Origin: the human T2T-CHM13v2.0 reference genome, Homo sapiens
Length of the DNA: 64,000 nucleotides
Strand: one strand, 5' to 3'
NCBI RefSeq assembly: GCF_009914755.1
Contig: NC_060933.1
Shown here: positions 23,801 through 27,900 of the stretch, in pieces
Layout: each line of letters opens with the position of its first letter
Position numbering within the stretch: position 1 is the first letter of the stretch
The notes under the pieces: model-generated
Told to the model about the DNA's origin: nothing
Databases searched by the model: none
The model's input: only the letters and a program-made list of their open reading frames with translations
Translations under genes and position numbers: made by a program

Positions 23801-24259
23801 CCTCTTGCTGATTCTACAAAAAGAGGGTTTCAAAGCTGCTCAATTAAAAGAACAGTTCAACTCTGTGTGAGATGAATGCAAACATCACAAAGAAGTTTCT
23901 CATAATGCTTCTGTCTAGTTTTGTTGGGAAGATATTTCCTTTTCCACCATATGCCTCAAAGCGCTCCAAATGCACACTTGCAGATTCTACAAAAATGGTG
24001 TTTCAAAACTGACCAATCAAAAGTAAGGTTCAACTCTTTGAGATGAATGCAGACATCACAAAGTAGTTTTTCAGAATGCTTCTGTCCAGTTTTTATGTGA
24101 AGATAAGTCCTTTTCTACTATAGGCCTCAAAGCACTCGAAATGTACACTTGCAGATTCTACAAAAAGTGTGTTTCAAAGCTGCTCAATCAAAAGAAAGGT
24201 TCAATTCTGTGAGATGAATGCATGCATCATGAAGAAGTTTGTCAGAATGCTTTTGTCTA
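5824..24259 (-). repeat. Alpha satellite, divergent layer of A-type (pJalpha-box) monomers, old SF4-like class
   Basis: ~171-bp tandem units; the + strand is the reverse complement of the usual ALR/Alpha consensus (CTTCTGTCTAGTTTTTATGTGAAGATATTTCCTTTTCCACCATAGGCCTCAAAGCGCTCCAAATGTCCACTTGCAGATTCTACAAAAAGAG...). Old-layer signatures are GAGATGAATG, GCTCAATC and TTCTCAGA. No CENP-B box seen. The SF label is inference. Confidence 0.95.
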
Positions 24260-24274
24260 TTTTTTTTTTTTTTT

Positions 24275-24613
24275 GTGAGCAACAAGGCTGTTTATTTCAC
24301 CTGAGTGCAGGTGGGCTGAGTCCAAAAAGAGAGCAAAAGGTGATTGGATTATCATTAGTTCTTATAGGTTTTGGAATAGGCAGTGGAGTTAGGAGCAATG
24401 TTTTGCGGGCAGGAGTTGGATCTCACAAAGTACATTCTCAAGGGTGGGGAGAATTACAAATTACAAAGAACCTTCTCAAAGGTGAGGGAGATTAAAAAGA
24501 ACTTTCTTAAGGGTGGGGGAGATTACAAAATACATCAGTTAGTGTGAAGCAGAAACAAAACACAATGGTGGAATGTCATCAGTTAAGGCTATTTTCACTT
24601 CTTTTGTGGATCT
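24275..24613 (-). mobile_element. HERV-H LTR fragment (LTR7B-like), partial U3 plus R, ending at its poly(A) site
   Basis: Minus strand reads AGATCCACAAAAGAAGTGAAAATAGCCTTAACTGATGACATTCCACCATTGTG ... CCTATAAGAACTAATGATAATCC ... GGACTCAGCCCACCTGCACTCAGGTGAAATAAACAGCCTTGTTGCTCACA-poly(A). This matches my recall of LTR7-family sequence. U5 and the first part of U3 are absent. Confidence 0.85.
24291..24296 (-). terminator. AATAAA polyadenylation signal of the LTR, used by the retrocopied transcript
   Basis: TTTATT on + at 24291-24296, 16 nt from the start of the T tract at 24274. Confidence 0.85.
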
Positions 24614-24805
24614 GGGACGTGAGGAGTGCCTCTGCCTGGACGCCCATTGTCTGGGATGTGAGGAGCGCCTCTGCCCGGCCGCCCCATCTGGGAAGTGAGG
24701 AGCTCCTCTGCCTGGCCACCCCGTCTGAGAAGTGAGGAGCGCCTCTGCCCGGCCGCCCCATATGGGAAGTGAGGAGCGCCTCTGCCTGGCCACCCTGTCT
24801 GGGAG
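24612..24805 (+). repeat. SVA/LAVA-type GC-rich VNTR, about 5 units of 38-40 bp
   Basis: Units of TCTGGGAAGTGAGGAGCGCCTCTGCCCGGCCGCCCCA with variants. Confidence 0.92.
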
Positions 24806-24835
24806 GTCTACCACAGAGGCCAGACGCAGTGTGGG

Positions 24836-24943
24836 GGCTGGACGTGGTGGCTCACGCCTGTAATCCCAACACTCTGGGAGGCCAAGGTGGGTTGATCACT
24901 TGGGGCTAGGGGTTCGAGACCAGCCTGGTCAACATGGCAAAAC
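24836..24943 (+). mobile_element. Alu left-arm fragment (AluS-type), part of the composite
   Basis: GGCTGGACGTGGTGGCTCACGCCTGTAATCCCAACACTCTGGGAGGCCAAGGTGGGTTGATCAC...GTTCGAGACCAGCCTGGTCAACATGGCAAAAC; no right arm. Confidence 0.9.
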
Positions 24944-25289
24944 ATATGAAAATTACAACAAACCAAACAACCAATCAACCAACCCAGCAACAACAAAACA
25001 GGTCTACCCTGGAGTCATACTCTAAATTTTTCTATTTTCCTCCCTTTCTGATCCTTTATCCCACTTTCTTTTTCTTCCTCTTCCTTCTCCTTCTTGTCAA
25101 AGACATAGAGGATTGAGTTATTATCATTGATCAATACAAAGTCCCTCTCTCATTTATTTTCTTTCATTCCCACCCCCCATTTCTATTCCCCATCTTCCTG
25201 TGTGCAACCTTCCTAATATGTTTGATATGCTTCTTTTTGTATATATTTTTAGAAAATGTTAAATAAAAAAAATTTAAGAAAGCCCTGCA

Positions 25290-27217
<1,928 letters not shown>

Positions 27218-27322
27218 CCTTTCACAGCTGGGGAGTGGAGACTGGGCCTGTGGTGGTGCTGTGTGCCTCCCAGCGCCTGGGGCGGTGCTCTGCACCTCCC
27301 GGTGCCTGCGGCGGTGCTGTGC
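27218..27322 (-). repeat. First exon of the chimera, with about 2.5 copies of a 29-bp GC-rich repeat (TAR1/subtelomeric 29-mer-like)
   Basis: Minus strand: GCACCGCCGCAGGCACCGGGAGGTGCAGA / GCACCGCCCCAGGCGCTGGGAGGCACACA / GCACCACCACAGGC. The TAR1 resemblance is from recall. Confidence 0.55.
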
Positions 27323-27900
27323 CTTTTGTCTACTTTTTATATGAAGATATTTCCTTTTCCACCATAGGCCTCCAATTGCTCCAAATGTCCGCTTACAGAT
27401 TCTACAAAAACAGTGTTTCAAAACTGATCAATGAAAAGTAAGGTTCAACTCTGTGAGATTAATGCACACATCACAAAGAAGTTTGTCAGAATGCTTCTGT
27501 CTCGTTTTTATGTGAAGATATTTTCTTTTCTTCTATAGCCTTCAAAGTGCTCCAAATGTCCACTGACAGATTCTCCAAAAAGAGTGTATCAAAGCTGCTC
27601 AATCTAAAGAAATGTGCAACTCCGTGAGATGAATGCATACAACTCAAAGAAGTTTGTCAGAATGCTTCTGCTTAGTTTTTATGTGAAGATATTTCCTTTT
27701 CCACAATAAGGCTCAAGGCACTCCAAATGTCTACCTCCAGATACTACAAAAATAGTGTTTCAAAACTGCTCAATGAAAAGTAAGGTTAAACTCTGTGAGA
27801 GGAATGCACACATCACAAAGAAGTTTGTCAGAATGCTTCTATCTAGTTTTTCATGTGAAGATATTTCCTTTTCCACCATAGACCACAAAGTGCTCCAAAT
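27323..27900 (-). repeat. Alpha satellite, continuation of the old A-type layer after the retrocopy
   Basis: Resumes in monomer register at the TSD, with the same AAGTTTGTCAGAATG and GCTCAAT signatures as 22.3-24.2 kb. Confidence 0.9.

What the first reader, a model, noticed from the sequence alone, without database searches (positions are those of the whole stretch)
24612..25281. LAVA-like element (described as gibbon-specific) in an apparently human sequence
Seen: an SVA-type VNTR joined at ...GGGAG|GTCTACCAC to unique DNA, an Alu left arm, more unique DNA and an A-rich tail, with no SINE-R. Established: LAVA shares the VNTR with SVA but has a U1-AluSz-U2-L1ME5 3' end acquired by splicing, and is reported as restricted to gibbons. 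The AluYa5 and SF2/SF5-like alpha satellite in the same window point to human. Inference: this is a relic showing LAVA was assembled before the gibbon/great-ape split, and it would be hidden by piecemeal annotation as SVA + Alu + L1M. I cannot confirm that it is unreported.
Basis: partly seen in the sequence, partly recalled or inferred. Interest (0 to 1): 0.85.

Follow-up and report, generated by a model that had tools for sequence, protein, structure and literature searches.

The report
LAVA-type fossil inside a human retrocopy
The human genome does hold a short SVA-type repeat array fused to the same HSD17B3-intron piece that forms the tail of the "gibbon-only" LAVA element, but it is a dead passenger inside a larger copied-and-pasted chimeric RNA, not a LAVA insertion of its own.

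Summary
Window 24611-24804 is five 37/39-nt SVA-type VNTR units. They join at GGGAG|GTCTACC to 456 nt that are 90% identical to one other human locus, which I take to be the HSD17B3 intron 2 "LAVA 3' progenitor". An A-rich tail follows.

The junction looks like RNA splicing. The VNTR breaks in phase before GTGAGG, and the human progenitor reads tatAG| just before GTCTACC.

It is not a free-standing LAVA. No hexamer or Alu-like region precedes the array, it has no target-site duplication of its own, and it ends about 21 nt before the LAVA 3' end.

It lies antisense inside a 3,063-nt minus-strand processed retrocopy (24260-27322). That retrocopy has a poly(A) tail, a 10-bp duplication in alpha satellite, and an LTR-supplied poly(A) signal. 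It copies a chimeric LSP1-STRN-(antisense ANKRD36) transcript.

CHM13 has six copies: three on chr9 by segmental duplication, and one each on chr3, chr5 and chr13. The chr3 and chr13 copies have their own duplications, and the copies differ by whole exons.

Carbone 2012 already counted six human copies of the 3' module, but the text I read does not mention an attached VNTR.

Divergence puts the retrocopies near the gibbon/great-ape split. Shared origin with LAVA versus parallel capture remains open.

The parts
24250..24259 (.). Left copy of the target-site duplication CTTTTGTCTA, in alpha satellite
   Evidence: The same 10-mer lies at 27323-27332. Joining the two flanks restores a continuous alpha-satellite monomer.
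24260..24274 (-). Poly(A) tail of the 3.06-kb retrocopy, read as poly(T) on the + strand
   Evidence: All six copies start with a T run here, but the left flanks differ between chr9, chr5, chr3 and chr13.
24275..24610 (-). Last ~335 nt of a retroviral LTR (LTR12/ERV9-like; the name is recalled). It carries AATAAA 17 nt before the tail and is the 3' end of the retrocopied RNA.
   Evidence: 2,408 first-look candidates genome-wide. 40 were scored; the 33 copies beyond self, the five paralogs and one chrX copy are 87-89% identical. Three generic copies continue differently beyond 24610.
24611..24804 (+). SVA-type VNTR, five units of 37/39 nt. It is cut on the left at a 4-nt ATCT microhomology with the LTR, and ends on the right in phase before the unit's GTGAGG.
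   Evidence: The other copies have 3-6 units by eye (119-234 nt).
24805..24836 (+). U1-like unique sequence. Homology to the HSD17B3-intron progenitor begins here.
   Evidence: The progenitor reads ...aaaatatAG|GTCTACCAC, and homology starts at that point.
24837..24945 (+). Alu left arm (the AluSz part of the LAVA 3' module)
   Evidence: Rfam Metazoa_SRP match, E 1.5e-07.
24946..25260 (+). U2 plus the L1ME5-derived part, named by homology to the progenitor locus. It ends at GAAAATGTT.
   Evidence: 90% identity to C9:108435613-108436070. Primer matches. The progenitor continues tattgttctgtgtgca, where the LAVA primer L1M5_R lies.
25261..25281 (+). A-rich tail with an embedded AATAAA: the relic poly(A) of the VNTR-HSD17B3 fusion RNA
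   Evidence: Absent from the progenitor and present, with variation, in all six copies.
25282..27003 (+). ANKRD36-like upstream region and first coding exon (name recalled). It is antisense within the retrocopied RNA.
   Evidence: 87% identity to C2:88773474-88775175, and that homology stops exactly at 25282. An ORF fragment ...[13 protein letters not shown]... appears.
27004..27081 (-). STRN-derived exon
   Evidence: 99% identity to C2:36912677-36912757. Pfam Striatin E 2.5e-16 on the longer chr5 isoform.
27082..27322 (-). LSP1-derived exons (name recalled), including a 29-nt repeat. This is the 5' end of the retrocopied RNA.
   Evidence: Exon-wise matches at C11:1972626-1972761 and in chr1 and chr2 duplicates, where the two pieces lie about 4.4 kb apart. 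TRF.
27323..27332 (.). Right copy of the target-site duplication CTTTTGTCTA
24260..27322 (-). The whole L1-type processed retrocopy, 3,063 nt

Best explanation
Proposed history, with what is shown and what is inferred.

1. Inferred from the junction: in an ancestor, an RNA with an SVA-type VNTR was spliced from the GTGAGG donor at a repeat-unit boundary to a cryptic AG acceptor in HSD17B3 intron 2. That RNA was polyadenylated and copied into the genome by LINE-1. The product is a VNTR-U1-Alu-U2-L1ME5-A(n) fusion of the same kind as the 3' half of gibbon LAVA.

2. Inferred: that single fusion copy lay upstream of an ANKRD36-like duplicate, next to an antisense LTR, at a locus I could not find in CHM13.

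3. Shown: a spliced chimeric RNA on the opposite strand was then retrotransposed. It runs LSP1-like exons, STRN-like exons, antisense ANKRD36 region, antisense fusion, LTR poly(A) site. The chr9, chr3 and chr13 insertions have clear target-site duplications; chr5 has its own flanks but an unclear duplication. The chr9 insertion went into alpha satellite and was later duplicated with its flanks to three chr9 sites, one of which is this window.

The feature at 24612-25281 is therefore a non-functional, 5'-cut, antisense passenger copy of a LAVA-type fusion. It is not a mobile element in its own right. It still shows that the VNTR-to-HSD17B3-intron capture happened in the human ancestry.
For: Fusion and splice signals:
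- All six copies read TCTGGGAG|GTCTACC.
- Every preceding VNTR unit continues ...GGGAN|GTGAGG, so the break is exactly at a donor-like site.
- The human progenitor has tatAG| immediately before GTCTACC.
- Homology with the progenitor ends where an A-rich tail begins.
- VNTR donors are used experimentally: Damert 2020 (PMC7353768, passages) reports splicing from the SVA VNTR into a reporter cassette.

Passenger status:
- All six copies share both flanks, while the progenitor shares neither.
- The shared unit begins at a T run and ends about 3 kb away.
- Target-site duplications: chr9 CTTTTGTCTA, chr13 GTGCTAAATTTTTT, chr3 ATTTTCACTT.

Processed RNA:
- Copies differ by whole blocks at fixed boundaries: +256 nt in chr5, +178 nt in chr13, and +21 nt in chr5 and chr3.
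- The parent exons lie 0.4 to 10 kb apart at C11:1.97 Mb and C2:36.91-36.93 Mb.
- Pfam Striatin E 2.5e-16.

Age:
- Non-CpG terminal branches are 0.009-0.015 substitutions per site.
- In the 466 kept columns shared with the progenitor, the progenitor branch is 0.041 against tips of 0.018-0.045.
Against: - No LAVA sequence beyond its VNTR could be read. The consensus in Carbone's supplement was cut at 400 characters. Identity of the junction with LAVA's therefore rests on Meyer 2016's verbal description.
- The source locus is absent from CHM13, so step 2 cannot be seen directly.
- The fusion has no target-site duplication.
- Its right edge coincides with an AG in the ANKRD36-like paralog, and its left edge with an AG in the LTR. 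I cannot explain either fully.
- The chr5 target-site duplication is unclear.
- Gene and repeat names (HSD17B3 placement in CHM13, LSP1, ANKRD36, LTR12, L1ME5) are recalled or taken from papers, not from an annotation tool.
Confidence: 0.8

Rival explanations
1. Parallel capture. The human fusion arose by its own splice event in the great-ape stem or later, using the same donor type and the same cryptic acceptor, and shares no ancestor element with gibbon LAVA.
For: - The fusion ends about 21 nt before the LAVA 3' end. The LAVA primer L1M5_R matches only the progenitor and 0 of 6 fusion copies. The fusion matches 456-458 nt of the progenitor, against 479-481 nt given for LAVA.
- The human progenitor has an AG acceptor, whereas Meyer 2016 reports AT in all gibbons analysed.
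[quoted passage not shown] I saw only the title, plus one term search that found no relevant text.
- The chr5 branch is short, 0.0087 non-CpG.
Against: - The progenitor branch is about twice the tip length. That places the fusion well before the retrocopies, which are themselves near the age of the split.
- Meyer 2016 cites 17-18 My for the oldest LAVA subfamilies, 'very close' to the split.
- A 21-nt loss could be a later deletion.
Confidence: 0.4
2. One reading: a 5'-truncated LAVA element inserted by itself at this chr9 site before the gibbon/great-ape split.
For: VNTR, U1, Alu, U2, L1ME5 and an A-rich tail lie in the LAVA order.
Against: - No target-site duplication flanks 24611-25281.
- The same two flanks accompany it at six loci on four chromosomes.
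- The duplications and the poly(A) belong to the 3.06-kb minus-strand unit.
Confidence: 0.04
3. DNA-level juxtaposition: a segmental duplication of part of HSD17B3 intron 2 landed next to an unrelated SVA VNTR.
For: The region is a pericentromeric duplication mosaic, and three chr9 copies arose by duplication.
Against: - Both edges of the HSD17B3 piece are RNA-like: an AG acceptor on the left and an A-rich tail on the right.
- The VNTR breaks at a GT donor in unit phase.
- No further HSD17B3 flank is carried along.
Confidence: 0.03
4. An SVA2 element, meaning a VNTR plus SVA2's own unique 3' sequence, known from macaque and human.
For: [quoted passage not shown] Here too only a VNTR precedes the 3' part.
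Against: - The 3' part is the HSD17B3-intron module that the papers assign to LAVA.
- Only seven places in the genome hold it.
- SVA2 units are mostly 40 and 39 nt (Lupan 2015), whereas here they are 37 and 39 nt.
- No SVA2 sequence was available to align.
Confidence: 0.02

Closest known systems
LAVA (L1-Alu-VNTR-Alu-like), a gibbon VNTR composite retrotransposon
   Same: A GC-rich VNTR is followed by the U1-AluSz-U2-L1ME5 module copied from HSD17B3 intron 2. The order and orientation match. The A-rich tail carries AATAAA. Four LAVA/human qPCR primers match.
   Different: No CT-hexamer or Alu-like 5' region. Only 3-6 VNTR units. It ends about 21 nt earlier at the 3' end. It has no duplications of its own. 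It occurs only as a passenger, with one origin and six copies. It is in human.
PVA and FVA, and spliced non-canonical SVAs
   Same: The 3' end was acquired by splicing out of the VNTR into a host transcript. This is described for PVA and FVA in the meeting report PMC3520738 (passage).
   Different: Those are families that amplified as such. This fusion left a single genomic copy, which spread only by hitch-hiking.
Processed pseudogenes and chimeric retrocopies made by LINE-1
   Same: The 3.06-kb carrier has a poly(A) tail, T-rich nick sites, 10-14-bp duplications, missing introns and several splice isoforms.
   Different: The template was a fusion transcript of a duplication mosaic (LSP1-like, STRN-like, antisense ANKRD36-like) ended by an LTR poly(A) signal, and its source locus is not in CHM13.
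[quoted passage not shown] 2012)
   Same: Almost certainly the same loci: the progenitor plus the retrocopies. CHM13 has seven.
   Different: In the passages I read, the paper does not mention the attached VNTR, the shared flanks or the retrocopy. Meyer 2016 later speaks of one ancestral copy only.

Membership tests
LAVA | 5' CT-rich hexamer repeat | tested here: not met
   Upstream of the VNTR lies an antisense LTR fragment in all six copies.
LAVA | SVA-type Alu-like region 5' of the VNTR | tested here: not met
   Absent. The VNTR starts at 24611, at a junction with the LTR.
LAVA | Central VNTR of GC-rich units of about 35-50 nt | tested here: met
   Units of 37 and 39 nt, 3-6 per copy by eye.
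LAVA | 3' module U1-AluSz-U2-L1ME5 homologous to HSD17B3 intron 2 | tested here: met
   90% identity over 456 nt to the single VNTR-free copy at C9:108.43 Mb. Primer matches. Alu arm by Rfam.
LAVA | VNTR/U1 junction at the same nucleotide as in LAVA | tested here: inconclusive
   Homology with the progenitor starts at GTCTACC, after an AG. This fits Meyer 2016's 28-nt U1 and its remark on the dinucleotide before U1. No LAVA sequence across the junction could be read.
LAVA | 3' end of the L1ME5 part as in LAVA | tested here: not met
   The L1M5_R primer site is present in the progenitor (3 mismatches) and absent from 6 of 6 fusion copies. The fusion matches 456-458 nt of the progenitor, against 479-481 nt for LAVA.
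LAVA | Own poly(A) tail and target-site duplications | tested here: not met
   An A-rich tail is present, but no duplication flanks 24611-25281.
SVA | SINE-R 3' domain after the VNTR | tested here: not met
   The VNTR is followed by the HSD17B3-intron homolog. No alignment to a SINE-R sequence was run.
SVA2 | SVA2-specific unique 3' sequence | not testable with these tools
   No SVA2 sequence is held. The arguments against are indirect.
LINE-1-mediated processed retrocopy (for the unit at 24260-27322) | Poly(A) tail, target-site duplication, loss of introns | tested here: met

The most novel reading that the evidence does not exclude
The VNTR-to-HSD17B3-intron-2 splice capture that defines the LAVA 3' end took place in the common ancestor of gibbons and great apes. 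It may even have started from an SVA2-like, VNTR-only RNA. Gibbon LAVA and this human fossil would then descend from the same proto-element or master locus. LAVA would have been assembled before the split and only amplified in gibbons. The human progenitor still carries the AG acceptor that Meyer 2016 had to postulate for gibbons.
Probability: 0.45. Interest if true: 0.65.

Novelty: new variant of a known kind. Interest (0 to 1): 0.55.

Why it matters
LAVA is described throughout the papers I read as restricted to gibbons, and Meyer 2016 says the steps leading to its origin are 'still not entirely clear'.

A human fossil that joins a VNTR to the LAVA 3' module at splice signals does three things.
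- It favours the splicing model over precise insertion.
- It shows the cryptic acceptor is intact in human.
- It gives four datable loci (chr9, chr3, chr5, chr13) whose presence or absence in siamang, orangutan and macaque complete assemblies would settle whether the capture predates the split.

It also explains why human DNA gave signal in LAVA qPCR assays, where human was taken as six copies. And it is a worked example of a composite element surviving only as a passenger in a chimeric retrocopy, where piecemeal repeat annotation would probably hide it.

Tried and rejected
Hypotheses dropped:
- SINE-R with twin priming. From memory I first read 24275-24610 as an inverted SINE-R and considered a 5' inversion of one SVA. 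I dropped this because the right-hand part is not SINE-R and the left part ends at an LTR poly(A) site.
- Simple insertion of the fusion into an LTR. Not supported: three generic LTR copies and the chrX copy continue tcagttgcttcagg... after gtggatct, which is not the sequence found at 25282 onward.
- Splicing on the minus strand for the edges of the HSD17B3 piece. Rejected: neither AG nor GT sits at the required places in the antisense progenitor (read).
- Splicing for the VNTR|LTR junction. Unresolved: the LTR side has ...GAAG|ATCC, but the antisense VNTR side has no GT. A 4-nt ATCT microhomology suggests DNA-level joining.

Sources that gave nothing:
- A literature search for the U1 sequence found 51 papers; none of the 10 listed concerns LAVA.
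- Ianc 2014 is not held.
- The LAVA consensus in Carbone's supplement is cut at 400 characters and shows VNTR only.
The primers and LAVA_C sequence of Meyer 2016 and the repeat-unit sequences of Lupan 2015 were therefore not seen, and they may bear on the junction.
- A search for LAVA together with ANKRD36, STRN or LSP1 found one paper, which is irrelevant.
- The T2T repeat preprint mentions LAVA once, only as an example of a composite retroelement.

Dating caveat: all-site dating in the CpG-rich ANKRD36-like part is not clock-like, and the chr9 copies run about twice as fast. I used non-CpG columns instead.

Full report
**What is at 24612-25281**

The + strand reads as follows.
- Alpha satellite runs up to 24259.
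- A T run lies at 24260-24274.
- An antisense retroviral LTR fragment lies at 24275-24610.
- Five VNTR units of 39, 37, 37, 37 and 36+1 nt lie at 24611-24804.
- GTCTACCAC... begins at 24805.

Rfam finds an Alu/SRP left arm at 24837-24945 (E 1.5e-07). The stretch ends in AAATAAAAAAAATTTAAGAAA at 25261-25281.

**Is the 3' part the LAVA module?**

No LAVA or repeat library is on hand, so I used the papers and the window's own assembly.

Meyer 2016 (PMC5174737, passages) and Carbone 2012 (PMC3606032, passages) describe the LAVA 3' end. It is U1 (24-28 nt), a 3'-truncated AluSz, U2 and an antisense L1ME5 piece. It is homologous over 479-481 nt to one locus in HSD17B3 intron 2 on human chromosome 9, in the gene's orientation.

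A search of the assembly with 24805-25281 gave 43 listed matches.
- Seven cover at least 456 of the 477 nt.
- The other 36 cover only the Alu part.
- Six of the seven are the window itself, C9:42.41 Mb (100%, 99.6% by BLAST), C9:47.59 Mb (97%), C5:29.03 Mb (94%), C3:75.44 Mb (92%) and C13:24.23 Mb (92%).
- The seventh, C9:108435613-108436070 on the minus strand (90%), has no VNTR and none of the shared flanks. I take it to be the HSD17B3 progenitor. The placement is my inference from chromosome, strand and uniqueness.

The four qPCR primers that Carbone 2012 designed to fit both gibbon LAVA and the human copies (Table S1) match the window with 0, 1, 3 and 0 mismatches. The 3' module is therefore the LAVA module.

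**The junction**

All six copies read TCTGGGAG|GTCTACC. A 35-nt junction pattern hits exactly these six places and none for the reversed control.

Split by unit, each VNTR unit ends ...GGGAN and the next begins GTGAGG (GTGGGG in two units). The array breaks exactly where the next GTGAGG would start. On the other side the human progenitor reads ...caaaatatAG|GTCTACCAC.

A GT donor in phase and an AG acceptor at the exact breakpoints are what splicing predicts. They are not what a DNA-level duplication predicts. Damert 2020 (PMC7353768, passages) reports that SVA VNTRs splice into a downstream cassette.

Meyer 2016 states that in all gibbons analysed the two nucleotides before U1 are AT, and it postulates a lost AG allele. 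Human has AG if U1 starts at GTCTACC. I could not see a LAVA sequence across the junction, so sameness of the boundary is inferred, not shown.

**The 3' end differs from LAVA**

Homology with the progenitor stops at GAAAATGTT (25260), where the A-rich tail begins. The progenitor goes on tattgttctgtgtgca....

The LAVA primer L1M5_R lies in that continuation. It matches the progenitor with 3 mismatches and none of the six fusion copies. The fusion matches 456-458 nt of the progenitor, against 479-481 nt for LAVA. The human fusion therefore ends about 21 nt earlier. The cause could be a different poly(A) site or a later deletion.

**It is not an insertion of its own**

All six copies share both flanks.
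- On the left: the same LTR fragment and a T run.
- On the right: GCCCTGCAAAGG... for another 2 kb.

The shared unit runs from the T run to about 27322. Beyond it the flanks differ.
- The three chr9 copies have alpha satellite on both sides.
- The chr5 and chr13 copies have unique DNA.
- The chr3 copy sits in another LTR.

The unit is bounded by direct repeats: CTTTTGTCTA on chr9 (24250-24259 and 27323-27332), GTGCTAAATTTTTT on chr13 and ATTTTCACTT on chr3. The chr5 repeat is unclear. Joining the two chr9 flanks restores an alpha-satellite monomer.

On the minus strand the unit ends ...GGTGAAATAAACAGCCTTGTTGCTCAC followed by A(15). That is an LTR poly(A) signal with a tail 17 nt after it.

The LTR part belongs to a large family. 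There were 2,408 first-look candidates, of which 40 were scored. The 33 copies beyond self, the five paralogs and one chrX copy are 87-89% identical. I recall the family as LTR12/ERV9.

The unit at 24260-27322 is therefore a minus-strand LINE-1-type retrocopy, and the VNTR fusion lies antisense within it.

**What RNA was copied**

Aligned, the copies differ by whole blocks at fixed points.
- chr5 has 256 extra nt.
- chr13 has 178 of those extra nt.
- chr5 and chr3 have 21 extra nt at the edge of the ANKRD36-like part.

The chr5 version gives a 178-aa open frame. Its second half is Striatin family (Pfam E 2.5e-16). Its first half weakly resembles Caldesmon (E 0.0054, below the cut-off). From memory, the first half is the C-terminus of LSP1 and the second is STRN exons.

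The pieces match exon by exon.
- C11:1972626-1972761 and C11:1973129-1973209.
- C2:36932243-36932347, C2:36923206-36923291 and C2:36912696-36912761.
- They also match pericentromeric duplicates on chr1, chr2 and chrY.

Window 25282-27003 is 87% identical to C2:88773474-88775175. On the + strand it encodes ...[13 protein letters not shown]..., which I recall as the ANKRD36 N-terminus.

The template was thus a spliced fusion transcript of a duplication mosaic, in this order:
- LSP1-like exons;
- STRN-like exons;
- a long terminal part running antisense through an ANKRD36-like upstream region and through the VNTR fusion;
- the LTR poly(A) site.

Different isoforms were copied at chr9, chr3, chr5 and chr13. 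No intron-containing source locus with the fusion is found in CHM13.

**Unexplained edges**

The fusion has no duplication of its own.
- Its left edge shares ATCT with the LTR. Generic LTR copies continue gtggatct|tcagttgc.
- Its right edge falls exactly where homology with the chr2 ANKRD36-like paralog begins, after caaccAG| in that paralog.

I favour a 5'-truncated insertion joined by microhomology, with loss of target DNA. This is inference.

**Age**

On 2,039 non-CpG columns, leaving out the LTR, the VNTR and the tail, the terminal branches are as follows.
- chr5: 0.0087.
- chr13: 0.0147.
- chr3: 0.0154.
- chr9: 0.0057 on the stem, then 0.010 to 0.014.

From memory, a human lineage accumulates roughly 0.016-0.017 non-CpG changes per site since the gibbon split. 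On that figure the chr3, chr13 and chr9 insertions are about as old as the split and chr5 is younger. Errors are around 20-30%.

In the 466 kept columns shared with the progenitor, the progenitor branch is 0.041 and the tips are 0.018-0.045. Under a clock this puts the fusion about 1.4 times as deep as the retrocopies.

Meyer 2016 cites 17-18 My for the oldest LAVA subfamilies, 'very close' to the split. A pre-split fusion is therefore likely, but not shown.

The CpG-rich part is not clock-like, and the chr9 copies run about twice as fast.

**What is already in print**

[quoted passage not shown] The paper aligned them with 18 gibbon elements and used 6 as the human copy number in qPCR.
- Its discussion, and Meyer 2016, speak of one copy on chromosome 9.
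- Lupan 2015 (Background section read) and Okhovat 2020 (bioRxiv 10.1101/765230, passages) state that LAVA is restricted to gibbons.
- In my seven searches I found no paper that describes a VNTR on the human copies or the carrier retrocopy.
- Ianc 2014, the paper on the splicing origin, is not held. The supplements of Meyer 2016 and Lupan 2015 could not be opened.

**Verdict**

The element is a passenger fossil, not a LAVA insertion, and part of the fact is already published. Whether it shares an ancestor with gibbon LAVA is open, at roughly even odds, and can be tested directly on complete ape assemblies.

Noticed in passing
L003:217-753 (+), i.e. C5:29031940-29032476: The chr5 retrocopy keeps a 178-aa stop-free frame that fuses an LSP1-like C-terminus in frame to STRN-like exons (Pfam Striatin E 2.5e-16). 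The other copies carry shorter isoforms of the same fusion.
   Followed up: partly
C9:108435613-108436070 (L006, reverse strand): The human HSD17B3-intron progenitor reads tatAG immediately before GTCTACC. Meyer 2016 reports AT before U1 in all gibbons and had to postulate a lost AG allele.
   Followed up: partly
C23:151956272-151956609 (L010:4270-4613): One chrX copy of the LTR is 93% identical to the retrocopy's LTR part. That is as close as the retrocopies are to each other, against 87-89% for the other 33 copies scored. It may be the nearest relative of the LTR that supplied the poly(A) site. Nothing else of the unit lies within 4 kb of it.
   Followed up: partly
window 26983-27003, with the chr5 and chr3 copies (alignment columns 2788-2808): Copies differ by exactly 21 nt at the edge of the ANKRD36-like exon. 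The shorter form starts after an AG on the antisense strand, which looks like two alternative 3' splice sites used by the antisense transcript.
   Followed up: partly
window 25282-27003 compared with the chr5, chr3 and chr13 copies: The chr9 copies, embedded in alpha satellite, have lost CpGs much faster. Against the four-way majority they show 76 differences, 53 of them in CpG columns. The chr5 copy shows 35 and 25. The rooted tree gives chr9 about twice the root-to-tip length.
   Followed up: partly
window 27246-27322; C22:22711642-22711860: The 29-nt tandem repeat at the 5' end of the retrocopy also occurs as a longer array on chr22 and next to LSP1-like duplicates on chr1, chr2 and chr16.
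   Followed up: no
C9:47590423-47595889 (L002) compared with the window: The third chr9 copy shares the alpha-satellite flanks and the duplication but is 2.8% diverged at non-CpG sites. The C9:42.41 Mb copy is 0.75% diverged. The chr9 segment was therefore duplicated at least twice, once long ago and once recently.
   Followed up: no
C24:27221097-27221808 and C24:27265917-27266021: chrY holds LSP1-like, ANKRD36-like and STRN-exon-like pieces within 45 kb. It is a mosaic of the kind the source locus must have been, but it lacks the VNTR fusion.
   Followed up: no
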